Shown: positions 5,107-48,657 of the stretch, piece after piece
Layout of the letters: the number at the start of each line of letters is the position of its first letter
Position numbering within the stretch: the first letter of the stretch is position 1
Assembly: GCA_031362565.1 (NCBI GenBank)
Contig: JANLSU010000081.1
Location: forward strand, 59,768-123,767
Source of the DNA: a bacterium
GTDB taxonomy: Bacteria; Krumholzibacteriota; Krumholzibacteriia; G020349025
Direction of reading: 5' to 3'
Length of the DNA stretch: 64,000 nucleotides
Position numbers and translations under genes: made by a program
Notes under the pieces: generated by a model
Seen by the model: only the letters and a program-made list of their open reading frames with translations
What the model was told of the DNA's origin: nothing
Databases searched by the model: none

Positions 5107-8100
5107 GTGCTGGTACAGCGCTCTCGCGCGTGGGGTCCGGCTATCTGTTGCGGCGTCCTCGGCCTTTTGGGGGCTGCCGGCGGGGCGGCGGCGGCGCCGA
5201 CGTTGACCCGTGGTCCCTTCCTGCAGCAAGTCACGTCGCAAACGGCCCAGGTGGTCTGGCGGACGAGCACCGCGGCGGCCTGTACCTTGACCGCCACTGG
5301 ACCGGCGGGGCCGAGCCTTGCCGTCGCGACACCGTCCGGCACCGAACATGTGGCGGTGCTGGCGGGGCTCCTGCCGGCGACGCGCTACGACTACAGCGTG
5401 CGCTCGAATGGCCTGGTGGCCGGCGGCACCAACTATTTCGTGCAGACGGCGCCGAATCCCGGCACGGGTGCCACGACGCGCTTCCTCATCTTCGGGGATT
5501 CGGGGACCGGCAGCGCGACGCAAACCGCGGTCGCGGCCACGCTCGTCACTCAGACCGCCGATTTCGGCATTCATGTCGGCGACATCATCTATCCGTCGGG
5601 GGAAACGCAGTACTACGACCCGCGTTACTTCCAGCCCTACGCCGCGATGATCCGCCACCTGCCCATCTTCGCCATTCTCGGCAATCATGACGCCGGCAAC
5701 TCCACGTCGTTCTTCGACGCGTGGCATTTGCCGACCAACTCGCTCGACGGCACCGAGCGCTACTACTCGTTCGACTTCGGCGACATCCACTTTGTCGGAT
5801 TGGATACGACGAAGCCGCTCACGTCCGCCATCTTGGCTTGGCTCGCGGCCGACCTCGACGCGTCACCCCGGCGTTGGAAGATGGTGTTCTTCCATCACAC
5901 GATGTACAGCTGTGGTTTGTACCATGGTACGTCGACGTCGTTGGTGAATGCCCTGGCGCCGGTGTTCGAAGCGCACGGCGTCGATGTCGTGTTCTACGGG
6001 CACGACCACCACTACGAGCGCAGCTTCCCGATCCGCGCTGGGGCGGCGCTGCAAACCGCTCTCAACCCGAATTTCGTCAGCCCCGGGGCGCCGATGTATG
6101 TGGTCAGTGGCGCGGCCGGCGCGTCGCGCGATGCAGCCTCCAACTGCTTTTTTACCGCGCGCGCCATCGCGACCCCGTCGTTCGCGCGGGCGAGCGTCAC
6201 GGCCGACCTGTTCACCCTCGAGGCCATCAGCGCCGACGGTACCGTCCTCGATCAGATGACGCTCTCCAAGTCGGGCACGCCGCCGCCGCCACCGCCGGCC
6301 GAAACCGCCAAGGTCTTGTCGCCGAATGGCAGTGAGGTGTGGCTCGCGGGCCAAGCCGCCATGCTGCAGTGGTCGGCGAGCCAGGGCATCGCTGCGGTGC
6401 GGATCGAGTTGTCACGCGCCGGGGCGCAGGGCCCTTGGGAAACGCTGTTTGCATCGACTCCGAATGATGGCGCCGAACCGTGGACGCCGACGGGGCCGGC
6501 GGCGAGCCAATGCTTGCTGCGTGTCGCCGATGCGAGCGACGGATCACCAAGCGACCTCTCGGACGCGGCGTTCCAAATCACCGTGGCGCCGCCGCCGCCA
6601 CCACCACCGCCGTCGGGCATTGTCGCACTCATCAACTTCCAGCCCGATGGCGTGCCCGTGCCGACTGGCTACCAGGTGGATACGGGTGCCATTTTCGACA
6701 CGGTGCGCGGCTATGGGTGGAACACGGCCCAAACGACGCGCGCGCGGGCGCTGCTTCCCGCCGACCCGCGCGACACCTTCGTGGACGTTACCAATACGTC
6801 GACGGCAACGTGGGAAATGGCGCTCGCCAACGGGACGTACTATGTGACGCTCTTGTGCGGCGACGCGCAAACGACGGCGTCGCACCGCGTCGCTCTCGAG
6901 GGCACGACGGTGCTCTTGGATACGAATACGGGCGCCAGTGAATTCTTGCAGCCGTTCGATATTCCCGTAACGGTGCAGGATGGCCGGCTCACCATGACGG
7001 TCGGGGGAAGCGGCGCCTTTTCGCACACGAAGGTCGACGCCATCGTCATTGCCAACGGTGCGGTCGTTTCACTGCCGTATACGCTTTCGACACCGGCACC
7101 GGCGGACGTGCGTTGCATCGGCAGCAGCGCGCCGATTCGCTGGTCTGGCACCGGCGGCACATTGCCGATGCGCGTCGAGCTGTCGCGCGCCGGCCTGGCC
7201 GGCCCGTGGGAACCGGCGGTGATCGTCACGGCCGACGACGGCGAGGAGCTCTGGACGCCGGTGGGGTCACCATCCCCTTGTGGCGCGATGCGCGTGCTCG
7301 ACAGCACGGGACATCTGCTGGCCGCGACCCCCAAACCTTTCGCACTTGGTGCGCCATCATTGCAGCTCCTCGCCCCCAACGGCGGGGAAACGTGGACGGT
7401 GGGGACGGCGCAGTCGTTCGGATGGACGAGCAGTTGCTACGCGGGCAACGTGCGGATCGACGTGTCGATGACGGGCCCGGCCGGTCCGTGGACCACGTTG
7501 ATCGCAACGACCCCCAACGACGGCACCGAGGCCTGGACGGTGCGGCCGGAAGACGCCGGTTCGATCTACGCGCGCATTATCGCTTTGCCCTTCGGCACGC
7601 CCAGCGACGCGAGCGACGCGGCTTTTAGCGTCATCACTCCACAGCCGGCCCCGTCGCAGACCTGGAAGTTCGACTTCACGGTGAACGGCGCGGCACCCGC
7701 CGCCGGCTCCACCGCCGAGACCGGGACGCCCTACAGCGCCGCCCTGGGCTACGGTTGGTTGCAAGCAGTGAGCATGAAGCAACGCAACCTCCTCCCGGGC
7801 GACTGCCGCGACACGTTCGTGCAGGTGACCAACAACACGACGGCCACTTGGGAGTTCGGGTTGCCGAATGGCACCTATAAGGTGTCCCTCACCTGCGGCG
7901 ATCCGCTGACCTCGGGCACCCACCGAGTGGCGCTCGAAGGGCAAGTCGTCGTCGCCGACGTGTTTGCGTCGGGGGGCGAGTATGTGACCCGGACCGATCT
8001 CCCCGTCGTCGTCGCCGATGGGCGCCTCAGCATGAAGCTGGGCGGCAGCGGCCAAATCACCAGCACCAAGGTCGGCTGCATCGAAATTCACTCCGCGGGC

Positions 8101-8442
8101 ACCCCACCTCGCACGGTCCGGCATGGGCCACGTGGCGATCAAGTGCCGGTCATCAGCAGCAGCATCACGCGTACACGGCTCGTGGCGCCCGCGGGGCCGG
8201 TCCACAACGCAGCGCGTTTTGGAATCGAACTCGTGCGCGAAGCCCCGGTGCGGCTTGCCCTCTATGACGTGCGTGGACGCCGGGTCATGACCCTTTTCGA
8301 GGGGCTCTTGCCGGCGGGACGCAGCGACATCACATGGGACACCCTGGACGCGCGGGGACAGCGGCTCGGTTCCGGTGTGTACTTCGCACGGTTCGAGACC
8401 GACGGCGCCAAGGACGCGCAACGCGTCGTCCTCGTTCGCTGA
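5107..8442 (+). CDS. exported multi-domain purple acid phosphatase (calcineurin-like metallophosphoesterase) with CBM-like and Ig-like repeats and a T9SS-type C-terminal domain
   Basis: Signal peptide. PAP N-terminal FN3-like domain. Metallophosphatase motifs GDSG, GDIIY, GNHD, FFHH, GHDHHYER. Two poly-Pro linkers. Internal repeats and a C-terminal sorting domain (listed separately below). Confidence 0.8.
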   Translation: MLVQRSRAWGPAICCGVLGLLGAAGGAAAAPTLTRGPFLQQVTSQTAQVVWRTSTAAACTLTATGPAGPSLAVATPSGTEHVAVLAGLLPATRYDYSVRSNGLVAGGTNYFVQTAPNPGTGATTRFLIFGDSGTGSATQTAVAATLVTQTADFGIHVGDIIYPSGETQYYDPRYFQPYAAMIRHLPIFAILGNHDAGNSTSFFDAWHLPTNSLDGTERYYSFDFGDIHFVGLDTTKPLTSAILAWLAADLDASPRRWKMVFFHHTMYSCGLYHGTSTSLVNALAPVFEAHGVDVVFYGHDHHYERSFPIRAGAALQTALNPNFVSPGAPMYVVSGAAGASRDAASNCFFTARAIATPSFARASVTADLFTLEAISADGTVLDQMTLSKSGTPPPPPPAETAKVLSPNGSEVWLAGQAAMLQWSASQGIAAVRIELSRAGAQGPWETLFASTPNDGAEPWTPTGPAASQCLLRVADASDGSPSDLSDAAFQITVAPPPPPPPPSGIVALINFQPDGVPVPTGYQVDTGAIFDTVRGYGWNTAQTTRARALLPADPRDTFVDVTNTSTATWEMALANGTYYVTLLCGDAQTTASHRVALEGTTVLLDTNTGASEFLQPFDIPVTVQDGRLTMTVGGSGAFSHTKVDAIVIANGAVVSLPYTLSTPAPADVRCIGSSAPIRWSGTGGTLPMRVELSRAGLAGPWEPAVIVTADDGEELWTPVGSPSPCGAMRVLDSTGHLLAATPKPFALGAPSLQLLAPNGGETWTVGTAQSFGWTSSCYAGNVRIDVSMTGPAGPWTTLIATTPNDGTEAWTVRPEDAGSIYARIIALPFGTPSDASDAAFSVITPQPAPSQTWKFDFTVNGAAPAAGSTAETGTPYSAALGYGWLQAVSMKQRNLLPGDCRDTFVQVTNNTTATWEFGLPNGTYKVSLTCGDPLTSGTHRVALEGQVVVADVFASGGEYVTRTDLPVVVADGRLSMKLGGSGQITSTKVGCIEIHSAGTPPRTVRHGPRGDQVPVISSSITRTRLVAPAGPVHNAARFGIELVREAPVRLALYDVRGRRVMTLFEGLLPAGRSDITWDTLDARGQRLGSGVYFARFETDGAKDAQRVVLVR
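6310..6582 (+). repeat. Ig-like ~90-aa repeat copy 1 inside the PAP gene (LSPNGSEVW...VRIELSRAGAQGPWE...TPNDGAEPWTP...SDLSDAAFQI)
   Basis: Three copies share the pattern LxPNGGExW / VRIELSRAGxxGPWExL / TPNDGxExWT / SDxSDAAFxI. Coordinates derived from aa 402-492. Confidence 0.5.
6619..7062 (+). repeat. CBM/malectin-like ~145-aa domain copy 1 (GYGWNTAQTTRARALLPADPRDTFVDVTNTSTATWEMALANGTYYVTLLCGDAQTTASHRVALEG...)
   Basis: Paralogous to the second copy. Shared motifs: GYGW, LLPxDxRDTFVxVTN, TATWExxLxNGTYxVxLxCGD, HRVALEG, DGRLxMxxGGSG, TKVxxIxI. Confidence 0.5.
7114..7350 (+). repeat. Ig-like repeat copy 2 (IRWSGTGGTLPMRVELSRAGLAGPWEPAVIVTADDGEELWTP...)
   Basis: Same motif set as copy 1; aa 670-748. 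Confidence 0.45.
7360..7635 (+). repeat. Ig-like repeat copy 3 (LAPNGGETWTVG...VRIDVSMTGPAGPWTTLIATTPNDGTEAWT...SDASDAAFSVI)
   Basis: Same motif set; aa 752-843. Confidence 0.5.
7660..8100 (+). repeat. CBM/malectin-like domain copy 2 (GYGWLQAVSMKQRNLLPGDCRDTFVQVTNNTTATWEFGLPNGTYKVSLTCGD...HRVALEG...)
   Basis: See copy 1; aa 852-998. Confidence 0.5.
8212..8439 (+). other. T9SS-type / FlgD-Ig-like C-terminal sorting domain (TIGR04183-like) of the PAP
   Basis: RLALYDVRGRRVMTLFEGLLPAGRSDITWDTLDARGQRLGSGVYFARFETDGAKDAQRVVLVR aligns by eye with the C-termini of the heparinase-like and FG-GAP proteins in this window. Confidence 0.55.
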
Positions 8443-10884: not shown

Positions 10885-13680
10885 CTACGGCCGCCGGTAG
10901 GCGCGCGCAGTGGGGCGGAACGGACGGGTAAACCACTCGGGGCGCCGCAGGCCGTCGGCGCGCGGTTTGACGGTCGCGAGCGCCAGCCACTCGTGATACG
11001 CCTGCATCGAGGCGGCAGTGTCGACTTCCACATCGCCATAGCGATCGTCCCGTTCGGCGCGCGTCACCGTGACCTTTTGATGCCAACAGTGCATGCCGGA
11101 AATGGGATCGGGTTGCACCGCGAACGTCAGGTTCTGATGCACACCACCATCCGTCCACCACACGCGGCTCGAATCGGGATCTTCGGACTTGAACGGCTTG
11201 ATGTCGCCCGTGCGGCGCACGCGCCAGCGGCCGGGACCCGGTTGTTCGATGCGCACCGGCGGCGCCGCCCAACGATCGGTACCCGGCTGGCCCTCGAGCC
11301 GCCAGCGCCCGAGATGATGTGAACACGCGATCACGCCCGGCCGGATCCCTTCGGTCACCCAGGCCTTGTTGACGAAGAACCCGATGCGCGTTGCGACGCG
11401 CACCAGATCCCCGGTCGCGACTCCCACGTGCGCCGCATCTTGGGGGTGAATCCACACCGGATTGCGGTTCGAGAGTTCATACAGCCATTTGGAATTCCCC
11501 GACCGCGTGTGAATCAGCGTCGGCAAACGGAATGTCGGCACGAGAACGAATTCGTTGCGCGCCCGGTCGAGCGTCGAGGGATGCACGTGACTCCGGATGT
11601 AGCCCGGCAGCACGGCATCCGAATATCCCCAATCGTCCATCGTCGGCGAAAAGAACTCGAGTTTGCGGGACGGTGTTTCGAAGCCGATCGCCGGTGCGCC
11701 GCGCGATTGCACCGCAATCGCCTTACCGTCGCGCGACCACACGCCGCGTTCCATATCCAGCGTCGCGCCCGCAACATCCGCCGGTGCGGTATGTGTGCCG
11801 TACACCACCGGCTCGACCTCGAACGCACCGTGGCGCCGCATGTATTCGAGCGGCGTCACCGCCTCGCGGGCCGCAGCCGCCGGCAGGCCCGGCACCGCGT
11901 TTTCGAAGATCCACCGGTACTGTTCCTCGACGGTCAAGCGTTCCCCCGGCCGGTACGGCGATTCGAAGTACTGCCGCACCCCAAGACTGCCATCCGGATC
12001 CACCGCCCACGAGAGCGCAATCCAGAACTCGTCCTCTTCCCAGACTTCGCCCGGGTTCGCCTGCCAGGTCCACTCGAACGTCTCGCCGGCGCGCTCGCGC
12101 GCCACGCGCTGCACCGGCTGCCGGAAGCCGATCCAGCGCGACGCATGCGTTTCCTGGCTCATGAGATCGTGGCGCTCGGGTCCCAATCCCATCGGCAATA
12201 CGTAGTCGGCAAAGAGTGCTGTCTCGCTCCACACCGGCGTCAGTGCGGCGTGCAGGCCGATCTTCGATTCGTCCTGCAACACTTCCATCCAGGTGAAACC
12301 ATCGGGATTGGTCCACACCGGGTTGTAGACGCGCGTGAAGTAGACGTCGACCTTGCCGCGGCCTTCCTTCAAGAAGTGCGGCAAGAGAAACGACAGTTCG
12401 TGATGCGACAGCGGCCACTCCGGGGGGAAGAGCAATTCGCTCCACACGTCCTGCGGCGGCGGCTTGCGCCAGCGCGCCGGCACGAACTTGTTCGCTGTGT
12501 GTTGCGAGGTACCGCCCGGCGTATTCACCGAACCCGTGAGCACGGTGAGAAACTGCAAGCAACGCGCTACCTGCCAGCCGCCGCGATTCCCGGATGCGGC
12601 GTTGCGCCACACGTGCGACGCGAAGGCGCCGCGGGCGCGGCCGATCTCGCGCCCCACGTCCCGCACGACATCAGCCTCGACGCCGCACTCTTCCGCCACC
12701 CACTCGGGCGTGTAGCGCGCGTACTCGGCGCGCAGCAGGGCGCGGAACGCTTCGAAAGTCGCCGGCTCACCCGGTTGGCGCACCGCGAGCCATGCATCCC
12801 AATTGACCCACGTGCGCATGAACTCGAGGTCTTCCAAGCCTTCCGCCAAGATGACGTGCGCGAAGCCGAGGAGCAGTGCCGCTTCGCTTCCCGGATGCGG
12901 CGCAATCCACCAGTCGCTCATGGATGCGGTATTCGACAAACGAATGTCGACGGTGGCGATCTTGCAGCCCGCATTCTTGGCATCCAGAATGCGCTGCGCT
13001 TGTGGATTGAAGTAGTGGCCGGCCTCCAAGTGCGCCGACAAAAGTAGAATGAACTTGGCGTTCGCGTGATCTGGCGACGGCCGATCGCTCCCCGACCACA
13101 ATTCATAGCCCAAGCGCGCCGCCGCCGAGCAGACGTTGGTGTGGCTGTTGTGGCCGTCCACACCCCATGCCTGCAGAATGCGCTCCATGGCGCCATCGTG
13201 CCCCGGGCGGCCGACGTGGTACATCACTTCGGTACGGCGATTCTCGACCAAGGCCTTGCGAATGCGCGCCGCGAAGGTCGCGATGACCTCGTCCCAAGTT
13301 GTCCGCTCCCACTGACCCGATGCCCGCGGCCCAACGCGCTTCAGGGGATAGAGAATGCGCTCCGGATCGTCGACTTGATTGAGCGTCGCCGGGCCCTTGG
13401 CGCAGTTGCGGCCGCGCGAACCCGGGTGGTACGGATTGCCTTCCAGCTTGCGAATCTTGTTGGTCTCGCGGTCGACATAGGCCACGAGACCACACGCCGC
13501 CTCGCAGTTGAAGCAGATCGTCGGTACCAGCCGGTAGTGATGCTCGACGCGCCGCGGCCACGCCTTGGGATCGTATTCGACCCAATCGTCCCAGCGATCG
13601 CGCGGTGGAAACGATTCCAGCTTGGTCACTTGCCAGGCCGCACCCGACGGCGCGACGGCGGAATCTTCGGTTGGCTTCAC
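10885..13680 (-). CDS. molybdopterin (bis-MGD) oxidoreductase catalytic subunit, PsrA/PhsA/TtrA-like, no recognisable TAT signal
   Basis: 931 aa. N-terminal 4Fe-4S motif ICFNCEAACGL...NCAKG. Sequence along the length is MopB-superfamily-like. N-terminus MKPTEDSAVAPSGAAWQV lacks an RRxFLK twin-arginine motif. Start overlaps the upstream gene stop (ATGA at 13677-13680). Confidence 0.85.
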   Translation of the reverse strand: MKPTEDSAVAPSGAAWQVTKLESFPPRDRWDDWVEYDPKAWPRRVEHHYRLVPTICFNCEAACGLVAYVDRETNKIRKLEGNPYHPGSRGRNCAKGPATLNQVDDPERILYPLKRVGPRASGQWERTTWDEVIATFAARIRKALVENRRTEVMYHVGRPGHDGAMERILQAWGVDGHNSHTNVCSAAARLGYELWSGSDRPSPDHANAKFILLLSAHLEAGHYFNPQAQRILDAKNAGCKIATVDIRLSNTASMSDWWIAPHPGSEAALLLGFAHVILAEGLEDLEFMRTWVNWDAWLAVRQPGEPATFEAFRALLRAEYARYTPEWVAEECGVEADVVRDVGREIGRARGAFASHVWRNAASGNRGGWQVARCLQFLTVLTGSVNTPGGTSQHTANKFVPARWRKPPPQDVWSELLFPPEWPLSHHELSFLLPHFLKEGRGKVDVYFTRVYNPVWTNPDGFTWMEVLQDESKIGLHAALTPVWSETALFADYVLPMGLGPERHDLMSQETHASRWIGFRQPVQRVARERAGETFEWTWQANPGEVWEEDEFWIALSWAVDPDGSLGVRQYFESPYRPGERLTVEEQYRWIFENAVPGLPAAAAREAVTPLEYMRRHGAFEVEPVVYGTHTAPADVAGATLDMERGVWSRDGKAIAVQSRGAPAIGFETPSRKLEFFSPTMDDWGYSDAVLPGYIRSHVHPSTLDRARNEFVLVPTFRLPTLIHTRSGNSKWLYELSNRNPVWIHPQDAAHVGVATGDLVRVATRIGFFVNKAWVTEGIRPGVIACSHHLGRWRLEGQPGTDRWAAPPVRIEQPGPGRWRVRRTGDIKPFKSEDPDSSRVWWTDGGVHQNLTFAVQPDPISGMHCWHQKVTVTRAERDDRYGDVEVDTAASMQAYHEWLALATVKPRADGLRRPEWFTRPFRPTARAYRRP

Positions 13681-15176
13681 GAGATCGCCACCGCCTGTCC
13701 GGCGCGAATCCAGGCGCGCTCATAGAGCAGCAAGGCAAAGGTCGCAAGTGTCGCGGCGAGCGCGCCGCAAACCGCCGCCGGCACCGGGCCCGACAGCACC
13801 ATGTGCCCCGTCCCCAGCATCGCCGCACCGGCTAGGAAAAGCGGCAGTTGCGATTTCATGATGGCGCGCCCGAGATACACCTGTGCCTTGCGCGCATCGG
13901 TGGTGCGCGGCCGGTGGCGTAATTCGCCGCCAAGCACCAGCGTGTTGACGAGCGACAACGCCGCCAAAAGCGCCCCCGCCGTATGCAGCACTCCCGGCGC
14001 ACCGGGCAGCACGACGGCCACGGCTGCGCCGAGGAACGCAGCGCGCAGGACGAGCCGCGTGAACAAACCGCGCTCCAACCACAGATCGCGGCCACGACAC
14101 TGGGCGAACAACCAAGCGCTGTAGCCCGAAACCAAAATCCCGAGTGGTACTCCGAGCCAACGCGCTACATCGGCGAGCATGCCTTGGCCCAGAACGCGCA
14201 GAACGAGCGATGCGCTCGTCGTCGCGCCAAACGCCATCAGCACCCAAGCGCCCTTGACGAGCCATGATTTCGTATTCGGCCGCAAGACGAGGCGCCAAAA
14301 ACGCTCCGGCCGCCCCAAGTCATGAATCAACAGCACGCTCGTGATCGCCGTGAACAGGAGTGCGACGACCTCTGGCACGTAGTCACGCGCCGCCCCCGCA
14401 CGCACGCCCAAAAGCCCCAAGAACGGTGCGACCAGCGCCGCGCCGGCGGCGATGTTCTTGGTGACGAGATATGTCCAGACATGCCAGCCCCACTGTGGCG
14501 CGTGTCCGACATCGAGCGTCGTCGTGACATCGGGAACGGGGTCGAGCCCGGCGACGCGCGGCGGCGGCGGCGTAGCGCGATCCGACCACAGCCAGGCGGC
14601 AGGTTCGGCGGCCGCGCCGGGCACGAGCGCTTCCGGCAGCGCATCGATGTACCACACCCGCGGCCCGGTGCCCTTTTCGAGCCGGCGGCGGCTCGTGGGC
14701 TCGTCCTGAATGAGGCGCGCGATCTTCGATTCGGGATCACTCACATCTCCGGAGACGATGGCTTCCGCCGGGCAGACGATGACGCACGCCGGTTCGAGAC
14801 CCAGTTCGGTGCGATGCGCGCAGTAGTGGCACTTTTCCGCCACGCCCGTGTCGGGATGGAAGTAGAGCGCGTCATACGGGCACGCTTGCATGCACGCGCG
14901 ACAGCCGATGCACTTGTCACGGTCGAGATCGACGATCGCATCCGGGCGCTTGTTCAACGCATTCACGGGGCAAATCTCGACGCACGGCGCGTGGTCGCAT
15001 TGATTGCAACGCAGCACCGTGAAGTGCCGGCGGACCGACGGAAACGTGCCCTTTTCGACGTACTTGACCCAAGTGCGGAAGCTGCCGAGCGGGACCTCGT
15101 TCTCCTGCTTGCAGGCGACAGTGCAAGCGTGGCAGCCGATACACTTCCGTTGGTCGATGACGAAGCCGACCTGCAT
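13677..15176 (-). CDS. fused 4Fe-4S ferredoxin (PsrB/HybA-like) + NrfD/PsrC-like polytopic membrane subunit
   Basis: Internal ATG at 15174-15176 (MQVGFVIDQRKCIGCHACTVACKQEN...) chosen over the long upstream extension. Four Cys clusters (CIGCHAC, CNQCDHAPC, CIGCRACMQACP, CHYC...CVIVCP) followed by about 8 hydrophobic helices (NrfD-like). No signal peptide. Confidence 0.8.
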   Translation of the reverse strand: MQVGFVIDQRKCIGCHACTVACKQENEVPLGSFRTWVKYVEKGTFPSVRRHFTVLRCNQCDHAPCVEICPVNALNKRPDAIVDLDRDKCIGCRACMQACPYDALYFHPDTGVAEKCHYCAHRTELGLEPACVIVCPAEAIVSGDVSDPESKIARLIQDEPTSRRRLEKGTGPRVWYIDALPEALVPGAAAEPAAWLWSDRATPPPPRVAGLDPVPDVTTTLDVGHAPQWGWHVWTYLVTKNIAAGAALVAPFLGLLGVRAGAARDYVPEVVALLFTAITSVLLIHDLGRPERFWRLVLRPNTKSWLVKGAWVLMAFGATTSASLVLRVLGQGMLADVARWLGVPLGILVSGYSAWLFAQCRGRDLWLERGLFTRLVLRAAFLGAAVAVVLPGAPGVLHTAGALLAALSLVNTLVLGGELRHRPRTTDARKAQVYLGRAIMKSQLPLFLAGAAMLGTGHMVLSGPVPAAVCGALAATLATFALLLYERAWIRAGQAVAIS

Positions 15177-15347
15177 GACGCTCCCTGGCTCGGGAAGCGG
15201 CCAGCATGTCACGCGCGTTGCGTCAGTGTCAATTCGGTGCTGGGTGAACCGTGCGATGCGTCCGGACTTGACGCGACGCGCGCCGCCGCTAAGAATCGCG
15301 GTTGCGGCCTTGGAAAGCCGCGCGGCCGCCTTGACGAAGGAGAACCC

Positions 15348-21785: not shown

Positions 21786-22013
21786 TTTGATGACGACATC
21801 GTCATTTTTCGGCACCGTCGCCGGTGCGATGACTCTCAACGCATGCAAATTGTCGTTTGAGGCGCGAAAAAGCCGCGATTCCTTCTCTCCACGGCGGCCG
21901 GTTCCGGTATGCTCATTGCGTCGTTCGTACATGAACGGTATGAAGGAACGGCGATCACGCGGACAAATGTGCGTGCGCTGTCCGTACCAGAGGCTGAAGG
22001 GTGGCGTGTGCAG

Positions 22014-22708: not shown

Positions 22709-25249
22709 ATGCGAACCCTAATTCTCGTCTTTCTGACCTGCGGGCTTTGGAGCCGTCCCGCGCCGGCAGAAGACCTGTACGTGGGGCACCCCAAACTGCT
22801 CTTCACGGCCGCCGATGTGGCGGGATTACGCGCCAAGGTGGCCGATGGCGGCGCCGACGACGCCACCTACGCCGCAATGCGCACCTGGGCCCAAGGGGCG
22901 CTGGCTTTTCCGACGACCTCCCTGCTCTCCTACGCTGAAGGCATCTCGGCGACCGGACAAATGGCTCTGGTGTCGCAGATCGAGACCAACGGCGCGGCGT
23001 ACGCGGCCAAAACGCGCCAGCTCGTGCTCGAGGTGGCGCGCAACCGCCCTTCCACCAACGACGAGTTCGCCTCGGGCCTGCGGCTGCAGGTGATGGCGCT
23101 GGGCTATGACCTCGCATTCGCCGGCGCGACGCCGGCCGAACGCGACGAGGTGCGCCACGCGATGCGCGCCGCACTCGACTTCATGCCGCCGCGCTTCAAC
23201 TACTACTGCCAGGCCTACAACCCCTACTGCGGCAACCACGGGATGACGGTCGGAGCTTCGATGGGGCTCGCAGTCATCGCACTCTGGGATGACGTGTCGC
23301 CGGCCGGCCAGGACTCACTCGCAACCGCCTTGGCATTCGCCGATCCCATCATTCAGAAGTGCCTGACGGATATCCTGCCGGACGATGGCGCGTACCGCGA
23401 AGGCGTGCTGTACGCCGGCTGGATCCTGCATGTTACAGCGCCGTACTTCGAAGCCCGGCGCCGCTTCGATGGCACTGATTTCGCCGCCGACCCGCGCTTC
23501 GCGCGCCTGATCGAATGGCTGTGCTACGAACTCGCGCCCGATGGCGGCGGGCGCACGAACAATCTGAACGATTCGCCGTGGTCGTCGCGGCCGTTGGCTC
23601 TCCACGGCACCGTGATCGAATGGGCGCAGACACGGCTCGGCAGCCCGCTCGCGGCGTATCTGCACGACCACGTTCTCGGCAGCTTCGGATTCGACTACGG
23701 ACCGCCGGCCGACCGCCTCGCAACGGTGCTCTGGTGGCAACCCATCGCACCGCTCAACCCCGCGGCACTCCTGCCCTCCGGGCGGCTCTTTCCGTCCCGC
23801 GGCCTGTACTATTTCCGGAACGGCTGGAAGACGGGTGCCAGCGGCGACGAGGTCGTGTTCGCGTTCTCGTCGGGCAAGTTCTATGGCGGGCACGCGCAGG
23901 AAGATCGGAATCAATTCACTCTCGCTGCCTACGGCCAGCGCTTCGTGGTCGATTGCGGCGCCGTCGGCAGCACCGCAACCCCGAAGCAGAGCGAAGCCCA
24001 CAATCTCGTCCTCGTCGATGGCATCGGACAGCACAACGCCGGAAACTCGATCGGCACCGACGGCGCCATCGTCTCGTCCCTGGTATCGGGATTCGCCGAC
24101 TACGTGCGGGGCGATGCACGGGCTGCTTACGCCACCTACAGCGCATTCAACTCCCCCGGCGTGCCGTTCGCGGCCTCCGACTGGAGCTGGGGATACGACG
24201 GCGGCAATCCGCTCGAGCGCGCCGATCGCACCTGCATCGTCGTGAAGGACGGCACCGCGCCGCCCTGGATGCTCGTCGCCGATGACATGCGCAAGGACGC
24301 GGGGTCACATGCGTGGGACTGGCTCCTGCACACGTCACAGGTTCATACGATCGATGTCGCGAGCGACCCGGCGCAGGTGACGGGCTCACAAGCGACGCTC
24401 GACCTTTACTTCGCGCATCCGCGCCCGGCGGACTTGGCGCTTTCGTGGGCGCCGTTCACCCACGGCGGCACCGATCCGCCGACGAATCGCCTTGTCGCGC
24501 ACCACAACGCCGTCGAACCGCGCTTCGCCGTCGCGCTCGTTCCGCGCCGCAACGGCGACGCGGCGCCGCTGTACGCCTCCACCAGCGACAGTGTTTCGAC
24601 GGAGTTGTCGCTCGACTGGGGATCGGCGCGCGACGTCTTGGTTTTCAATCCGCACCGCGTGCGCGTCACGCACGAGATCGACACCGATGGTGTGGCCGCG
24701 TTGGTCCGGCGCGCCGCGGGGGCCGTGCGCGGCTACCTGCTGGCCGACGGCACGTTCATGCGTGAAGGCGGCATCGACCTCGTCGTGCTCGGCGGGGTCG
24801 CATCCGCGGCACTCGCGGGCGATTCGCTCGAACTCTCCAGCGACGATGTGCCGTTCACGGCCTGGGGTCCCGAAGTCGTGGCCGTCCGCGGGCCCTCGGG
24901 CCCGCGCGCCTTCGTGCGGGACGGCGACGTCGTCCGGAATCCAACGGCGACGGACGTTGCAGCCCTCGGGGCGAGCCTGCAAATCGAACCGCTCCGGCCC
25001 CAACCGGCGCGCGGCGGCGCGACGCTGCGTCTCGCGCTCAACCACTCCGCCCGGACTCGAGTGCGGATCGTCGACGCCCGTGGCGGGCTCGTCCGCGATC
25101 TTGGCGAGCGCACCCGTTCAGCAGGTGCCGTCGCAATTCCCTGGGACGGCCGCAGCGCCTCGGGCCGCCCCGTTTCACCCGGCGTCTACTTCTTCGTCAT
25201 CGAGCTGGCCGGACACTCGACGGCCCTGAAGGTCGTGCTGATCCGCTGA
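22709..25249 (+). CDS. exported heparinase II/III-like (polysaccharide lyase-like) protein with T9SS-type C-terminal domain
   Basis: Signal peptide MRTLILVFLTCGLWSRPAPA. Alpha/alpha-toroid-like N-terminal half. Hepar_II_III-like region YYFRNGW...GGHAQEDRNQFTLAAYGQRFVVDCG...EAHNLVLVDG. C-terminal 74 aa (25025..25246) match the shared sorting domain. Confidence 0.6.
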   Translation: MRTLILVFLTCGLWSRPAPAEDLYVGHPKLLFTAADVAGLRAKVADGGADDATYAAMRTWAQGALAFPTTSLLSYAEGISATGQMALVSQIETNGAAYAAKTRQLVLEVARNRPSTNDEFASGLRLQVMALGYDLAFAGATPAERDEVRHAMRAALDFMPPRFNYYCQAYNPYCGNHGMTVGASMGLAVIALWDDVSPAGQDSLATALAFADPIIQKCLTDILPDDGAYREGVLYAGWILHVTAPYFEARRRFDGTDFAADPRFARLIEWLCYELAPDGGGRTNNLNDSPWSSRPLALHGTVIEWAQTRLGSPLAAYLHDHVLGSFGFDYGPPADRLATVLWWQPIAPLNPAALLPSGRLFPSRGLYYFRNGWKTGASGDEVVFAFSSGKFYGGHAQEDRNQFTLAAYGQRFVVDCGAVGSTATPKQSEAHNLVLVDGIGQHNAGNSIGTDGAIVSSLVSGFADYVRGDARAAYATYSAFNSPGVPFAASDWSWGYDGGNPLERADRTCIVVKDGTAPPWMLVADDMRKDAGSHAWDWLLHTSQVHTIDVASDPAQVTGSQATLDLYFAHPRPADLALSWAPFTHGGTDPPTNRLVAHHNAVEPRFAVALVPRRNGDAAPLYASTSDSVSTELSLDWGSARDVLVFNPHRVRVTHEIDTDGVAALVRRAAGAVRGYLLADGTFMREGGIDLVVLGGVASAALAGDSLELSSDDVPFTAWGPEVVAVRGPSGPRAFVRDGDVVRNPTATDVAALGASLQIEPLRPQPARGGATLRLALNHSARTRVRIVDARGGLVRDLGERTRSAGAVAIPWDGRSASGRPVSPGVYFFVIELAGHSTALKVVLIR

Positions 25250-39015: not shown

Positions 39016-39031
39016 TGGCATGCACGATGCT
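39016..39031 (+). promoter_or_regulatory. candidate sigma-54 (-24/-12) promoter TGGCAT-N5-ATGCT upstream of the ATP-grasp gene pair
   Basis: tggcatgcacgatgct: GG and GC dinucleotides with canonical spacing, about 38 nt upstream of ATG 39070. Confidence 0.35.
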
Positions 39032-44292: not shown

Positions 44293-47200
44293 TTACGGAC
44301 GCACGACCACTGCTTTGCGGGTGGCGACGAATTCATCGGCCCGCAGGCGCACCAAGTACACGCCGCGCCGCACGAGGGCGCCGGTCGCGTCGCGCCGGTC
44401 CCAACTGACGGCATAAAGTCCCGCTCCCCGCGTGCCTTGCTCGAGGCTGCGGATGCGGCGCCCGGCCACGTCGAAGATCTCCAAACGCAAATCACGCGCA
44501 CCGCGCTCCAATGCGTACTCGATGCGGACGACCGTGCCATCCTGCCACGGTTCGCCGAGGAAAGTGTGCAAGACAGCCGCGGGCGCCGGCGGCATGTCCG
44601 GCACGTCGGTCGGCACGAGCGTCACGACGGTGTAGACGAAAACGCGCCCGTCCGGCGGGTACGTGCTCGCACCGACCAACACGTCACGGTGCCCATCTCC
44701 GGTCACATCCCGATCCGCTGCCACGGCCGCACCGAAACGGGTTCCGGGGGTTCCCAGCAGCACGGCGGCCGGAAGGTCGTCGGCATTTGAACCTCCAGCG
44801 AAAATCAGCACCCGCAATGCTGCACCGCCGACGGGGTTCAGCGTCCCCACTGCCAGATCCGCGTCGCCATCGCCATCGAGGTCGCCGGCCGACAGACTGG
44901 CGCCCAGTTGCTCACCCGCCGACGGCGAGTCGTACACCCAGTCGGCCGTCACATTCAACACGCCTGGACCGCCGCGAAACACGCTGACGCGACCGCCGAT
45001 GCCGCGCCCCGGCGCGCCAACAATAACGTCGGACCAGCCGTCACCGTCGAAGTCGGCGGCGGTGATCGCATCCCCGAACCGGCCGCCATCGCCGTTCAGT
45101 ACCAAGTCCGGCGAGCCGTCCACCGACGGGCCCCCGAAGTACACGTACACGGCGCCAAAATCGGTGCCGCCGACATCATTGTCCGGCGCCCCGACAAGGA
45201 AGTCTTGGTATCCGTCGCCGTTCAAGTCGCCGCCACGCGCCGCACGCGTGCCGAATCTCTCGCCGGGAGACTGCGCCACCAGGAAGCGGTCGGGATTCGT
45301 GTCGAAGGCCGGACCGCCAAAGTACAAGAACCCAAGTCCATTGAATGCGCCGGGGATGCCGATGAGCAGGTCGTCGTACCCGTCGGCATTGACATCACCG
45401 ACGCCGGCCAGCCCCTCACCCATGTGACCGCCGGGACTTGAACCGGTGAAAACGCGGTCCGCGAAAACGTCGAGATTAGGGCCACCCAGGTACGCGTACA
45501 GCCTTCCCCCATCCAGCGCGCCCATGTCCGCGAGCGGGGCGGCCACCACGAAATCACCGTAGCCATCACGATTCAGGTCGCCGGCGGCGAGTGCCACGCC
45601 AAAGCCGTCGCCGGAGACTTCACCCCCGATCCCCAATTCCGGCGAACCACCGAGCGCCGTACCGCCGAACTCCAAATGCAGCCGGCCCACGCCGGGCGGG
45701 CTGATCGATTGTGCACCCGCGACCAGGTCGGCGATTCCATCGCCGCTCAAATCCGCAGTTGTAGCCAGCGGCTCGCCGAATTTGGTTTCGAAGGCAGCCG
45801 CTTCAATGAAAAATTCCGGCGGTGAGATGGTGCCCGCGGTCGCCCGCGCCGTGCACGAGAACACCTGGTGGCAGGTGGCATCTTCTGCTACGAACATGAT
45901 CGTGCTGATTTGGAACTGACCCACCGGCAATGTTGGCGCCGTGAGACTAAAGCCAACGAACGCAATTTGCCCACTGGGCACCGTGATGTTCTGCGCCACA
46001 GGCGTTCCCCAGCCGCGCGAGTCTTGGATGGTGTAGGCGAACGTTTGCGCCGACAGCGACGTGTTGAGAAGCTGGAACGTCGTCGGGCGTGCGACGCCGC
46101 TCGGCGCCAAAAAGTCGGCGGGACAAGTGACCCCGGCCGTCACCATCGCCGGGAGGACGCGCGAGACGCAGGCGATCTGGCTCAGCGGACAGCCGGTGAT
46201 CGCCACTTGAAACCGCACCGAGTCGATCTGCGTGAAGCAGAGCGGCGGGACTTGGAGAGTGATCACCGCGCTTGCCGTTTGGCCCGGCGCCACCGTCTGC
46301 GTGCCGGTGACCGGCGCACCCCAGCCACGCGTGTCGTTGAGTGAGTATTCGTACGTGCGTGCGAACAAGCCCTCATTGGTCCAACGGGCGCGGCGCTGCA
46401 CCGTGACGTTGTCGCCGACGGTGGTATCCGCCGGGCATTGCAACACCGCGGCATGAAACGGCACGACCACGTGCGACGTGCATTGGAACTCACGAGCCGG
46501 ACACGCCGTACTCGTGACATGCAGGGTAACTGCATCGTCTTGCGCTACGCACACCAGGGCCGGCGTCGTGAGTGCGTAATCGACGGTGTGTGTTTGCCCA
46601 ACGCCCAAATTCACGCTGCCCGACTGCGGCGCACCCCAGCCGAAGGCGTCGCCGGCGGAATAGTTGTACGTCAGCGAGGTCGTCGACGAGTTCGTGAAGT
46701 GGAGCAGGCGGTGGACACTTTGGCCGGCGTCGACCGTCGTGTCGACGGCACACGCAACCGTCACCGCGGAGACCGCCGTGACCGAAAGGGTCTTCGACAC
46801 TTGAACCCAAGCGCTGGGCGCCGCGCATTGGTCGCGGACGCGGGCGATCATCGTCAGCACATCGCCGCACTGCGCACCGACCGGCAACGGGCAGACCCGA
46901 GTCATGCAGAATACGCCGCCCGGGACCAGCGTCACGGTGCTCGATCCAGTGGGGCAACCGTTGGCCCAGCCCGACGTTTCGTAAACGTAGTTGCGCGTCG
47001 CCTGAGTCACATTCTGGAAGCAGAACTGCAACTGGGCCTGTTCCCCCGGCTCAGGGAGCGTGTCCAGCAGCGCGCACGTGGTGATGACCGGCGGAGCCAC
47101 TGTCCGCAGAACCGTCACTTGTTTCGTCAGTGCCGGGCTAGCGCACCCCGGCGGGATCAACGAGATGGTCACCGTGCTGCCGGCCGCACATGAAGCGCCG

Positions 47201-48657
47201 CTCGCAGTCACCGGCAGGTCGAAACACGCCGAGTCGCCCGACGCAATCGTCGGACTGGCGTCGAAGGGGCTCACCCAGCCCTGATCGTCGGCGATGTGCA
47301 CGTTGTACACCAAGGCCGTGAACTCGTCGTTGTGCACACACAGGTGCAGATTCACTGTCGCGCCGGCCGCGACCGTCAACTGCGCGGGCGCGGTGATGCG
47401 GATGCGATCCGGCCGCTCCAAGTACGCGCGCCCGACACCACCTTGCAGCGGCGCGCCCACCAAAAGCTCCGCGGTTCCGTTGCCATCGGTATCCGGCCCA
47501 ACGGCGCCGGCGGAGGCAAAGCCATCGAGAGGCACCTCCGCCGTCCAAATCTGTTCCGGCACGTCGTCGACGGCCGGCCCACCCTCATAGATGCGTACCT
47601 CGCGCCCCGATACACCAACGACGAAATCCCCGAGCCCGTCGCCGGAGAGGTCGCTACCCGCGGCCACGAAGCGGCCGAAATTTGTCGTCAGTCCGCCCAG
47701 GAACAAATCGGCGAATTCGTCGCTCGACGGCCCGCCGTAAAAGACGTACGCCGTGCCGCCAGTGCCGCCGAAAGTGGGAGCTCCCGCGACGAGGTCGGGC
47801 TGCGCATCGCCGTTCACGTCGCCGACCGCGAGCGCTTCGCCGAAACCAGTTCCCACGCCGCCCGCGATCAGAACCCGGTCCGCGAGTGCGTCGAACCCAG
47901 CGCCGCCCCAGAACAGCTTCGTGCGTGCGCCCGCCCCGCTGCCGGGGGCGCCGGCGGCCAAATCCGCGACCCCATCGCCATTGAGGTCACCGAGCGCGAC
48001 CGCCGCGCCCAACTGTTCGCCAAACGCACCGTTAGCCGTCAGACTCGGAATCGTCGGCGGAGGCGCGGCGCCAAAGTAGACGAACACCTTACCTTCAAGC
48101 CCGCTGGGCGAAGCTCGCGGCGCACCGACCACCAGGTCTGCGCCGCCATCCTGATTCAAGTCCGCTCCGCCCCCCAAGGCGGTGCCGAAGCGCCCGCCAG
48201 GCACTGGACCATTGAGGATGACATCCGCCACCGCGTCGAATGCCGGACCTCCAAAATAGATGTACACGCGGCCGGCGTCGGTGCCTGCGAGGTCGTCGAA
48301 GGGTGCGCCCACGGCCAGGTCGCGGAATCCATCGCGGTTCCAGTCGCCGATCGAGGCCACCGCCGCGCCGAAGCGATCGCCCGGGGCAACGCCCACGAGC
48401 GTGAAGTCGGGAGTCACATTGCGCGGCGCACCGCCGCGGTATACGTAGACCCGGCCCGCCCCCGTGGTGGTGGTCTGCGACGCTACGGCCCAATCGCCGA
48501 ATCCGTCCGCATCGATATCGCCGGCGAGAACGCACGCATTACCGAAGCTCTGTGCAACGGAGGGAGCGAACAGAATACTCGAACACGCGGTGTGGGCCGC
48601 CGGTGCGGCGGCGACAAGCAGCACGGCGCTGGAGAGCACCAATCGAGTGGCACGCAT
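44293..48657 (-). CDS. exported FG-GAP/VCBS repeat protein (1454 aa) with T9SS-type C-terminal domain
   Basis: Signal peptide MRATRLVLSSAVLLVAAAPAAHTA. More than 10 repeats of FGxxVAxxGDxNGDGxxDLxVGAP. C-terminal 75 aa (44296..44520) ...LRLEIFDVAGRRIRSLEQG...SWDRRDATGALVRRGVYLVRL...RKAVVVRP. Confidence 0.7.
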   Translation of the reverse strand: MRATRLVLSSAVLLVAAAPAAHTACSSILFAPSVAQSFGNACVLAGDIDADGFGDWAVASQTTTTGAGRVYVYRGGAPRNVTPDFTLVGVAPGDRFGAAVASIGDWNRDGFRDLAVGAPFDDLAGTDAGRVYIYFGGPAFDAVADVILNGPVPGGRFGTALGGGADLNQDGGADLVVGAPRASPSGLEGKVFVYFGAAPPPTIPSLTANGAFGEQLGAAVALGDLNGDGVADLAAGAPGSGAGARTKLFWGGAGFDALADRVLIAGGVGTGFGEALAVGDVNGDAQPDLVAGAPTFGGTGGTAYVFYGGPSSDEFADLFLGGLTTNFGRFVAAGSDLSGDGLGDFVVGVSGREVRIYEGGPAVDDVPEQIWTAEVPLDGFASAGAVGPDTDGNGTAELLVGAPLQGGVGRAYLERPDRIRITAPAQLTVAAGATVNLHLCVHNDEFTALVYNVHIADDQGWVSPFDASPTIASGDSACFDLPVTASGASCAAGSTVTISLIPPGCASPALTKQVTVLRTVAPPVITTCALLDTLPEPGEQAQLQFCFQNVTQATRNYVYETSGWANGCPTGSSTVTLVPGGVFCMTRVCPLPVGAQCGDVLTMIARVRDQCAAPSAWVQVSKTLSVTAVSAVTVACAVDTTVDAGQSVHRLLHFTNSSTTSLTYNYSAGDAFGWGAPQSGSVNLGVGQTHTVDYALTTPALVCVAQDDAVTLHVTSTACPAREFQCTSHVVVPFHAAVLQCPADTTVGDNVTVQRRARWTNEGLFARTYEYSLNDTRGWGAPVTGTQTVAPGQTASAVITLQVPPLCFTQIDSVRFQVAITGCPLSQIACVSRVLPAMVTAGVTCPADFLAPSGVARPTTFQLLNTSLSAQTFAYTIQDSRGWGTPVAQNITVPSGQIAFVGFSLTAPTLPVGQFQISTIMFVAEDATCHQVFSCTARATAGTISPPEFFIEAAAFETKFGEPLATTADLSGDGIADLVAGAQSISPPGVGRLHLEFGGTALGGSPELGIGGEVSGDGFGVALAAGDLNRDGYGDFVVAAPLADMGALDGGRLYAYLGGPNLDVFADRVFTGSSPGGHMGEGLAGVGDVNADGYDDLLIGIPGAFNGLGFLYFGGPAFDTNPDRFLVAQSPGERFGTRAARGGDLNGDGYQDFLVGAPDNDVGGTDFGAVYVYFGGPSVDGSPDLVLNGDGGRFGDAITAADFDGDGWSDVIVGAPGRGIGGRVSVFRGGPGVLNVTADWVYDSPSAGEQLGASLSAGDLDGDGDADLAVGTLNPVGGAALRVLIFAGGSNADDLPAAVLLGTPGTRFGAAVAADRDVTGDGHRDVLVGASTYPPDGRVFVYTVVTLVPTDVPDMPPAPAAVLHTFLGEPWQDGTVVRIEYALERGARDLRLEIFDVAGRRIRSLEQGTRGAGLYAVSWDRRDATGALVRRGVYLVRLRADEFVATRKAVVVRP

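What the first reader, a model, noticed from the sequence alone, without database searches (positions are those of the whole stretch)
8212..8439. Three large exported proteins share a conserved ~70-aa C-terminal sorting domain (T9SS-type / FlgD-Ig-like)
The C-termini of the PAP (8212-8439), the heparinase II/III-like protein (25025-25246) and the FG-GAP protein (44296-44520, minus strand) align by eye: [RL]x[IL]xDxxGRxVxxL...AG...[IV].WD.....G..[VL]..GVY[FL]......KxV[LV][IV]R. This resembles the TIGR04183 Por-secretion-tail / type-A sorting domain. It implies a dedicated export/anchoring pathway (T9SS or an analogous CTD-sorting system) and marks these three proteins as its cargo. Their functions are diverse: phosphatase, glycan lyase, adhesin-like.
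Basis: partly seen in the sequence, partly recalled or inferred. Interest (0 to 1): 0.55.

Follow-up and report, generated by a model that had tools for sequence, protein, structure and literature searches.

The report
Shared C-terminal secretion sorting domain

Summary
Three genes (5107-8442 +, 22709-25249 +, 44293-48657 -) encode a metallophosphatase, a heparinase II/III-like protein and a 14-repeat FG-GAP protein. Each has an N-terminal Sec-type signal peptide. They resemble one another only in their last 64-85 residues (BLASTP E 1e-9 to 8e-8).

Not shown: any T9SS machinery gene. None lies in the window and the genome was not retrievable. The organism's placement near Krumholzibacteriota is also unproven. 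Verdict: probable T9SS-type cargo, a new member of a known kind, of low interest. In passing, I noticed a second short C-terminal tag, [ST]WGx[IV]Kx[LM][YF][RK], that no model or paper I could search describes.

The parts
5107..8442 (+). Gene P1 (1111 aa): secreted calcineurin-like/purple-acid-type metallophosphatase with two galactose-binding-like domains and a C-terminal sorting domain
   Evidence: ORF. The exact product was called on Logan contig SRR20217213_140889. Pfam Metallophos 1.5e-15, AGA-YXIM_GBD x2, Pur_ac_phosph_N, Metallophos_C, FlgD_ig.
5107..5196 (+). P1 N-terminal Sec-type signal peptide (MLVQRSRAWGPAICCGVLGLLGAAGGAAAA)
   Evidence: Read directly from the sequence: basic n-region, an uncharged hydrophobic stretch of about 20 residues, then an Ala-rich c-region. 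No signal-peptide predictor was available.
8155..8439 (+).
   Evidence: FlgD_ig 29.8 bits at residues 1037-1092. TIGR04183 24.1 bits (cut-off 23) at residues 1044-1108. Alignments A1 and A2.
22709..25249 (+). Gene P2 (846 aa): secreted heparinase II/III-like protein with a C-terminal sorting domain
   Evidence: The exact 846-aa product was called on Logan contig SRR20217213_104270 with Hepar_II_III_C and FlgD_ig. Pfam. 271 homologues were found, most carrying PF13860 and/or PF18962 at the C-terminus.
22709..22768 (+). P2 N-terminal signal peptide (MRTLILVFLTCGLWSRPAPA, then EDL)
   Evidence: Read directly from the sequence. The start codon is confirmed by the independent gene call.
24962..25246 (+).
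44293..48657 (-). Gene P3 (about 1454 aa): FG-GAP repeat protein (14 repeats in two blocks flanking Ig-like modules) with a C-terminal sorting domain
   Evidence: ORF. Pfam FG-GAP 1.9e-81 with 14 stretches, FG-GAP_3 and FlgD_ig 39.1 bits. The ATG at 48657 is chosen because it precedes a signal peptide. The exact gene model is not on record.
48589..48657 (-). P3 N-terminal signal peptide (MRATRLVLSSAVLLVAAAPAAHT)
   Evidence: Read directly from the sequence.
44296..44580 (-).
   Evidence: FlgD_ig 39.1 bits at residues 1391-1459. TIGR04183 21.5 bits, E 1.7e-4, just below the cut-off of 23. Alignments A1 and A2.

Best explanation
[quoted passage not shown] First, the N-terminal signal peptide takes each protein through Sec into the periplasm (sequence feature shown, function inferred). 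Second, the folded passenger carries a single seven-stranded Ig-like beta-sandwich at its extreme C-terminus (shown by model and fold match). Third, that domain is recognised by a SprA/Sov-type translocon with a PorV-type shuttle, through the surface formed by the beta3-beta4 loop glycine and the last strand K/R-x-x-x-x-[KR] (motifs shown, recognition inferred by analogy with Porphyromonas and Flavobacterium). Fourth, the passenger is released or attached at the cell surface after a PorU-type sortase removes the CTD (inferred). The cargoes are a phosphatase, a glycan lyase-like enzyme and an FG-GAP adhesin-like protein, all of which fit an extracellular scavenging or adhesion role. The organism is an uncultivated high-GC bacterium whose nearest named relatives, judged by the heparinase, are Candidatus Krumholzibacteriia in the FCB superphylum.
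For: The three tails are homologous, and the tails are the only region the proteins share. FlgD_ig is above its gathering score in all three. TIGR04183 is above its cut-off in P1 and significant but sub-threshold in P3 and P2. The tails also hit the CTD portions of the PorU and PorZ models.

Orthologues bridge to canonical CTDs. P2 orthologues from 86% down to 36% identity keep a C-terminal domain that grades into the canonical PNPFNP...IYDxxGRxV...WDGxDxxGxxVaSGVYF...KLvLLK tail. Of the 55 tails in alignment A2 (the three window tails plus 52 orthologue tails), 51 hit TIGR04183, 48 the PorU CTD, 42 the PorZ CTD and 41 PF18962. NCBI names some of these orthologues 'T9SS type A sorting domain-containing protein'.

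The invariant glycine after D-x-x (G41) and the near-invariant lysine in the last strand (K90) correspond to the two motifs shown by mutagenesis to be needed for RgpB secretion (PMC11285876; alignment).

Position is constrained. All 107 CTD-bearing ORFs in 80 related metagenome loci have one copy at the C-terminus: 97 of 106 end within 3 aa of the stop, and the rest within 22 aa with truncated HMM alignments. 95 of 106 end in R or K. Internal tandem copies of the same module in other proteins lack the last strand, while terminal copies have it.

Passengers in relatives are a typical secretome: proteases, S-layer proteins, choice-of-anchor domains, deiminase. The nearest named relatives of P2 are Krumholzibacteriia, Krumholzibacteria, Latescibacterota and Chitinivibrionia, all FCB lineages. 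Krumholzibacteriota is placed in the FCB superphylum with GC 69-71% (PMC10936416), and the window has GC 65.8%.
Against: No T9SS machinery gene (SprA/Sov, PorK/L/M/N, PorU, PorV, PorZ, PorP/Q/T) is in the 64 kb window. None was seen among the recurrent neighbours or the roughly 47 signal-peptide ORFs scanned in the related loci. The source genome could not be retrieved.

The best sequence-level matches are to FlgD, not to T9SS proteins. PF18962 does not hit any of the three, and TIGR04183 is below its cut-off in two. This lineage has lost the PNPFNP motif.

Taxonomic placement rests on one protein family. The only named close relative of the PPK1 encoded in the window is a Vicinamibacteria (Acidobacteriota) protein at 70% identity. 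No open paper in the searched library pairs T9SS with Krumholzibacteriota or Latescibacter*.
Confidence: 0.75

Rival explanations
1. The tail is only a generic FlgD-type Ig-like module, serving as a structural spacer or a binding domain for cell surface or glycan. It would have no role in sorting, and the proteins would leave the cell by another route or stay in the periplasm.
Against: A generic module would not be strictly single and terminal in 107 of 107 ORFs with unrelated passengers. It would not carry a last strand with K-x-x-x-x-[KR] that internal copies lack. It would not keep the two residues needed for T9SS export. Orthologues have canonical T9SS tails. The top structural matches, with the highest identities, are T9SS CTDs.
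Confidence: 0.1
2. The tail is a sorting signal, but for a lineage-specific outer-membrane export or anchoring system that is not a canonical T9SS. That system might use a different translocon or sortase which co-evolved with this degenerate tail.
For: All three window tails and their closest relatives lack the PNPFNP motif and fall at or below the curated T9SS thresholds. T9SS has not been described in this phylum in the searched literature. A second, undescribed C-terminal tag occurs in the same organisms. CTDs are known to be poorly interchangeable between species (PMC11285876).
Against: Sequence runs continuously from these tails to canonical T9SS tails within one orthologous family. The experimentally defined recognition motifs are conserved. 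The tails resemble the CTDs of PorU and PorZ themselves. Nothing positive points to another machine.
Confidence: 0.12
3. The similarity is chance or compositional, because all three are Arg/Ala/Gly/Val-rich tails in a 66% GC genome.
For: The high GC biases composition. One shuffled tail reached E 3.7e-5 in phmmer.
Against: Real pairs score E = 1e-9 to 1e-11 with collinear alignment over 64-85 residues. There are 19 invariant columns. Independent curated HMMs match above threshold. The domain folds confidently.
Confidence: 0.01

Closest known systems
T9SS type A C-terminal sorting domain (NCBIfam TIGR04183 / Pfam PF18962 Por_Secre_tail). Examples are the CTDs of P. gingivalis RgpB (5AG8, 5HFS), PorU (6ZA2) and PorZ (5M11), T. 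forsythia mirolase (8QB1), and F. johnsoniae NucA bound in the SprA translocon complex (8GLK)
   Different: The N-terminal PNP(FNP) motif is lost in this lineage. P1 has Arg in place of the last-strand Lys. TIGR04183 is passed by only one of the three and PF18962 by none. The host is not a Bacteroidota, and its T9SS machinery is unverified.
FlgD Ig-like domain (Pfam PF13860), the domain inserted in the flagellar hook-cap protein FlgD (PDB 3C12, 3OSV, 7EH9)
   Same: This is the highest-scoring sequence family: all three are above the gathering score, and the PDB profile hit to FlgD has E 6.6e-12 over profile positions 18-84. The beta-sandwich core is the same, including the W-D-G-x-D-x-x-G-x-x-V-x-x-G-x-Y signature.
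T9SS type B CTD / CHU_C (TIGR04131, PF13585) and type C CTD (ChiA-type, NF033708)
   Same: The role and position are the same: a C-terminal beta-sandwich T9SS signal. There are weak hits (CHU_C E 0.084 to 0.002; 12 of 55 tails; type C in 1 of 55).
   Different: The scores are far below threshold. Type B cargo genes are usually paired with porP/sprF-like genes, and none is seen here.
Short C-terminal sorting tags processed by exosortase, sortase or rhombosortase (PEP-CTERM, LPXTG, GlyGly-CTERM, MYXO-CTERM)
   Same: They also mark diverse secreted proteins at the C-terminus. 'Choice-of-anchor' passenger domains, which occur with several such tags, also occur with this CTD in relatives.
   Different: Those tags consist of a short motif, a transmembrane helix and a basic tail. 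The domain here is an 85-aa folded beta-sandwich with no hydrophobic helix.

Membership tests
T9SS type A CTD (TIGR04183 / PF18962) | Score at or above the curated cut-off of TIGR04183 (23 bits) | tested here: inconclusive
   P1 scores 24.1 bits (met). P3 scores 21.5 bits, E 1.7e-4 (not met). P2 has no hit in the full protein and 17.7 bits, E 2.6e-3, as an isolated tail (not met). Of the 55 tails in alignment A2, 51 match at E <= 0.01, the best at 1.4e-13.
T9SS type A CTD (TIGR04183 / PF18962) | Match to Pfam PF18962 Por_Secre_tail | tested here: not met
   None of the three window proteins hits at E <= 0.1. 41 of the 55 tails in alignment A2 do hit, as do many P2 orthologues in the precomputed Pfam column.
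T9SS type A CTD (TIGR04183 / PF18962) | Seven-stranded Ig-like beta-sandwich fold resembling solved CTDs | tested here: met
T9SS type A CTD (TIGR04183 / PF18962) | Located at the extreme C-terminus, one copy per protein, on proteins with an N-terminal Sec signal | tested here: met
   All three end at the stop codon. In related loci 107 of 107 ORFs carry a single terminal copy. Signal peptides were read from the sequence; no predictor was run.
T9SS type A CTD (TIGR04183 / PF18962) | Conserved functional motifs: Gly at the start of strand 4 (beta3-beta4 loop motif) and Lys in the last strand (C-terminal motif) | tested here: met
   G41 is invariant and K90 is at least 90% conserved in the 55-tail alignment. 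P2 and P3 have the Lys, and P1 has Arg. The motifs are defined in PMC11285876.
T9SS cargo (functional membership) | Genome encodes the T9SS core (SprA/Sov, PorK/L/M/N or GldK/L/M/N, PorV, PorU) | not testable with these tools
   None is in the window. The source is an unnamed 127 kb NCBI contig and short Logan contigs. The genome scan found no close relative. A partial scan of related loci found none, which says little because cargo genes are scattered.
T9SS cargo (functional membership) | Host belongs to the FCB superphylum, to which T9SS is confined | tested here: inconclusive
   P2's named relatives are Krumholzibacteriia (52% identity), Krumholzibacteria, Latescibacterota and Chitinivibrionia. 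Krumholzibacteriota is treated as FCB in PMC10936416. However, PPK1's only named near hit is Vicinamibacteria, and the window holds no rRNA or tRNA gene.
T9SS cargo (functional membership) | CTD-dependent export and CTD cleavage shown experimentally | not testable with these tools
   The organism is uncultivated and no data exist.
FlgD (flagellar hook-cap protein) | FlgD_ig domain above the Pfam gathering score | tested here: met
   Scores are 29.8, 33.0 and 39.1 bits against 27.
FlgD (flagellar hook-cap protein) | Full-length FlgD architecture (N-terminal FlgD region plus Tudor-like domain) reaching the NCBIfam equivalog cut-off | tested here: not met
   NF005176 scores 20-27 bits against a cut-off of 230, and only profile positions 85-159 are matched. 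The passengers are a phosphatase, a lyase-like protein and an FG-GAP protein. These proteins are not FlgD.

The most novel reading that the evidence does not exclude
An uncultivated high-GC lineage near Krumholzibacteriota, for which no T9SS has been described, may run a CTD-dependent outer-membrane export system with a remodelled signal. That signal has lost the PNPFNP motif and ends in Arg. The same organisms also use a second, undescribed short C-terminal tag, [ST]-W-G-x-[IV]-K-x-[LM]-[YF]-[RK], on other signal-peptide proteins. Together these would point to a lineage-specific variant of, or addition to, type IX-like sorting.
Probability: 0.15. Interest if true: 0.5.

Novelty: new member of a known kind. 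Interest (0 to 1): 0.2.

Why it matters
The domain flags these three proteins, and probably many more in the genome, as surface or extracellular. That helps in reading the ecology of an uncultivated FCB-type bacterium: phosphate scavenging, glycan degradation and adhesion. It also gives a worked example of how curated T9SS-tail models lose sensitivity outside Bacteroidota. Two of the three tails would be labelled only 'FlgD Ig-like' by automatic annotation, and that label hides a probable sorting signal. It changes nothing fundamental, because this kind of domain and its role are well established.

Tried and rejected
1. Finding the source genome. P3 is not on record under any of three start choices.

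2. Taxonomy from a housekeeping gene. A PPK1 search gave 120 hits with only one organism name, Vicinamibacteria at 70% identity, which is uninformative. The window has no rRNA or tRNA gene. NCBI records are listed only by accession.

3. Hunting T9SS machinery near cargo genes of relatives. I fetched 80 metagenome loci. I tested 44 long CTD proteins for full-length PorU or PorZ and found none; the best PorU E-value was 5.8e-15, about the level of a tail-only match. I then tested the recurrent neighbour families, two gene runs with gldKLMN-like sizes, and about 47 signal-peptide ORFs packed into pseudo-proteins. No T9SS family appeared. This is uninformative rather than negative, because only about 0.5 Mb from many genomes was covered. 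Several large ORFs with no family hit turned out to be Arg-rich wrong-frame artefacts.

4. A search with the tail profile alone in the word-indexed protein database gave only 8 short hits.

5. The full 55-tail alignment was too divergent for the locus finder, so an 8-sequence subset was used.

6. The Foldseek AFDB library was not available.

7. Literature. No paper in the searched library holds T9SS or 'type IX' together with Krumholzibacteriota or Latescibacter*, the sample accessions or the short tag.
Full report
WHAT IS THERE. The window is 65.8% GC. Independent gene calls on Logan contigs of run SRR20217213 give the same P1 (1111 aa) and P2 (846 aa, ATG at 22709). P3 is not on record. I take the ATG at 48657 as its start because it precedes a typical signal peptide.

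- P1 has Metallophos, weak Pur_ac_phosph_N and Metallophos_C, and two galactose-binding-like domains.
- P2 has Hepar_II_III_C.
- P3 has 14 FG-GAP repeats.

All three start with a basic n-region followed by an uncharged hydrophobic stretch and a small-residue c-region. I read these by eye because no signal-peptide predictor was available.

IS THE SHARED TAIL REAL? Yes. The tails are 33-35% identical pairwise with 19 invariant columns. In BLASTP of the full proteins the only significant matches are the last 64-85 residues, with E from 1e-9 to 8e-8. phmmer gives E from 1e-9 to 1e-11 between tails, while the best of 900 shuffled tails gave 3.7e-5. An HMM of the three tails finds only these three copies in the six-frame translation of the window.

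WHAT IS THE DOMAIN? I tested curated models first. PF13860 FlgD_ig is above its gathering score in all three, at 29.8, 33.0 and 39.1 bits against 27. TIGR04183, the T9SS type A sorting domain, scores 24.1 in P1 (cut-off 23), 21.5 in P3 and 17.7 in the isolated P2 tail. PF18962 gives no hit at E <= 0.1. The tails also match the C-terminal ends of the PorU and PorZ models. By HMM alone, then, they sit at the edge of the T9SS family and inside FlgD_ig.

Orthologues settle the matter. P2 has 271 homologues. Their tails run without a break from the window type (LRPQPARGGATL...KVVLIR) to the canonical T9SS type (YPNPFNPSTTI...IYDVAGRRV...WDGRDDAGRPVASGVYF...KLVLLK). I aligned 55 tails: the three window tails plus 52 orthologue tails. 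Of these, 51 hit TIGR04183 (best 1.4e-13), 48 the PorU CTD, 42 the PorZ CTD and 41 PF18962, and all 55 hit FlgD_ig. NCBI names some of these orthologues 'T9SS type A sorting domain-containing protein' and others 'FlgD immunoglobulin-like domain containing protein'.

A profile of the 55 tails, searched against PDB sequences, hits FlgD best (E 6.6e-12), but only over profile positions 18-84. It then hits the PorU CTD (6za2, residues 1057-1136, E 1e-6) and the PorZ CTD (5m11, E 3e-6). The RgpB, mirolase and NucA CTDs are hit through positions 70-93, which is the last strand.

FUNCTIONAL MOTIFS AND POSITION. Mutagenesis in P. gingivalis defined two CTD elements needed for secretion. One is the beta3-beta4 loop, whose only conserved residue is a glycine at the start of strand 4. 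The other is the C-terminal strand, which has a conserved lysine (PMC11285876). In the 55-tail alignment the glycine of D-x-x-G-R-x-V is invariant and the last-strand lysine is at least 90% conserved. P2 and P3 have the lysine, and P1 has arginine.

I fetched 80 metagenome loci with the pattern I[HYF]DVRGRL[VL], which says nothing about position in the protein. They hold 107 ORFs with the domain. Every one has a single copy. 97 of 106 copies end within 3 residues of the stop, and the other nine end within 22 residues with HMM alignments that are simply cut short. 95 of 106 end in R or K, mostly as K-x-x-x-x-[KR]. Passengers in these relatives are what a T9SS secretome looks like: M6-like and subtilisin-type proteases, clostripain, aminopeptidase N, agmatine deiminase, S-layer glycoprotein and choice-of-anchor B/D domains.

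A CAUTION ABOUT THE MODULE. A search of 1.84 billion cluster representatives with the 55-tail profile gives 482,636 proteins at E <= 1e-3 and 283,638 at E <= 1e-10. The 150 best are large proteins with 2-23 copies, mostly internal. This shows that the beta-sandwich core is also a general building block. The internal copies stop at about profile position 84, and only 2.5% reach position 92. Copies that sit at a C-terminus run to about position 94. A hit to the module is therefore not proof of sorting. What marks the sorting form is the combination of a single copy, a terminal position and the basic last strand, and the three window proteins have all three.

WHAT COULD NOT BE SHOWN. No T9SS machinery gene is in the window. 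Pfam and NCBIfam labels for essentially all ORFs give the following:
- sigma-54 regulators
- a PTS EIIC
- an ECF sigma and anti-sigma pair
- a molybdopterin oxidoreductase
- HtrA
- an S9 peptidase
- multihaem cytochromes
- a CusCBA-type efflux pump
- PPK1 and Ppx
- two ATP-grasp proteins
- a PLP decarboxylase
- an SDR
- a CDGSH protein
- a glycosyltransferase
- a Pls/PosA-type NRPS
- a permease
- RNase II
- PP2C

The genome itself was out of reach. A partial hunt through the related loci found no PorU, PorZ, PorV, SprA or Gld protein. That covers only about 0.5 Mb spread over many genomes, so it says little either way.

Taxonomy is also soft. P2's named relatives are Candidatus Krumholzibacteriia (52% identity), Krumholzibacteria, Latescibacterota and Chitinivibrionia. 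Krumholzibacteriota is treated as FCB and has GC of 69-71% (PMC10936416). On the other hand, PPK1's only named near relative is a Vicinamibacteria protein at 70% identity, within a plateau of hits at 68-71%. Two relatives' contigs appear to carry both a PPK1 and a P2 orthologue. I infer this only from matching contig lengths (35,932 and 74,414 bp); if correct, it argues that P2 is native to the lineage. [quoted passage not shown] No paper in the searched library pairs it with Krumholzibacteriota or Latescibacter*.

MECHANISM, WITH SHOWN AND INFERRED STEPS MARKED. Shown:
- three unrelated passengers;
- N-terminal signal-like peptides;
- one terminal Ig-like sandwich that is homologous to T9SS CTDs and keeps their two functional motifs.

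Inferred by analogy with Porphyromonas and Flavobacterium:
- Sec export to the periplasm;
- recognition of the folded tail by a SprA/Sov translocon with PorV;
- energisation by PorLM/GldLM;
- removal of the tail by a PorU-type sortase, with release or surface attachment.

I put this at 0.75. The rivals are a purely structural or binding Ig module (0.10), a lineage-specific non-T9SS sorting system (0.12) and chance (0.01).

COMPARISON AND NOVELTY. This works like, and is homologous to, the T9SS type A CTD. By curated thresholds only P1 is a formal member. P2 and P3 are members by transitive homology, fold, motifs and position. None of the three is FlgD, because the full-length FlgD models score about 20-27 bits against cut-offs of 230 or more. 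This is a new member of a known kind. Its practical value is a secretome label for an uncultivated bacterium, plus a reminder that 'FlgD Ig-like domain' annotations at C-termini in FCB candidate phyla usually mean a sorting tail. Interest is low, about 0.2.

SEEN IN PASSING. The most interesting item is a second C-terminal tag. The window gene 60185-60898(-) encodes 237 aa with the signal peptide MKRSSIALAVSALLCLPALGAAAP. It has no Pfam family on record and no NCBIfam hit, and it ends in ...PTSAETWGTVKHLYR. The core W-[GSA]-x-[IVLF]-K-x-[LMIV]-[YFM] occurs 15 times in 679,387 residues of six-frame ORFs from the related loci, and all 15 lie within 6 residues of a stop. The carriers are mostly unrelated outside the last ~20 residues, and many have signal peptides. 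No model or searchable paper describes the tag. It may be a second sorting or terminal-interaction signal in these organisms. I did not follow it further.

Noticed in passing
window 60185-60898 (-); also L007, L008, L025-L028, L032, L042, L048, L065, L071, L073 (ORF ends listed): A second, short C-terminal tag, [ST]-W-G-x-[IV]-K-x-[LM]-[YF]-[RK]. The window gene (237 aa, signal peptide, no Pfam family on record and no NCBIfam hit) ends in ETWGTVKHLYR. The 8-residue core occurs 15 times in 679,387 residues of six-frame ORFs of the related loci, always within 6 aa of a stop. The carrier proteins are mostly unrelated and often have signal peptides, and in about half a Cys lies roughly 10-17 residues upstream. 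The hydrophobic spacing (W, I/V, L/Y) suggests an amphipathic helix. It was not found in NCBIfam or in the searchable literature. Its closeness to CTD genes is not meaningful, because the loci are short and centred on CTD genes.
   Followed up: partly
proteins P0271-P0420: The same FlgD-like Ig module occurs as 2-23 tandem, mostly internal copies in very large proteins (up to 7612 aa). Internal copies lack the last strand (profile end about position 84), while C-terminal copies have it. The family has 482,636 cluster representatives at E <= 1e-3.
   Followed up: partly
window 50835-55142 (+): A large single-module NRPS-like protein with adenylation and PCP domains, followed by a membrane-embedded hexapeptide-repeat C-terminal region of the Pls/PosA (epsilon-poly-lysine synthetase-like) type. 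TIGR02353 scores 390 bits against a cut-off of 423.
   Followed up: no
window 6330-6620, 7130-7370 and 7400-7650 (within P1, approximate): P1 contains three copies of a module of about 60-90 aa (..PNG[SG]E.W..G......W.......V.I.[LV]S..G..GPW..L...T.NDG.E.WT...) that matches no Pfam family. The copies alternate with the two galactose-binding-like domains. I saw this by eye in the translation and did not test it.
   Followed up: no
window 35080-37185 (-): The only organism name among the 120 best PPK1 homologues is Vicinamibacteria (Acidobacteriota) at 70% identity. The heparinase's named relatives, by contrast, are Krumholzibacteriota, Latescibacterota and Fibrobacterota. The phylum of the source organism is therefore not settled. 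Contig lengths suggest that two relatives' contigs (35,932 and 74,414 bp) carry both genes.
   Followed up: partly
window 20343-22568 and 10885-15200: A respiratory gene neighbourhood lies directly upstream of P2. It holds a NapC/NirT-type multihaem cytochrome (PF03264), a cytochrome c554-like protein (PF13435), a large molybdopterin oxidoreductase ORF and a 4Fe-4S/NrfD-type subunit.
   Followed up: no
window 38845-41431 (+) and 42727-44262 (-): Two adjacent paralogous ATP-grasp proteins (weak ATPgrasp_Ter and CPSase_L_D2 matches) lie near a PLP-dependent decarboxylase, immediately beside the FG-GAP cargo gene. Their function is unknown.
   Followed up: no
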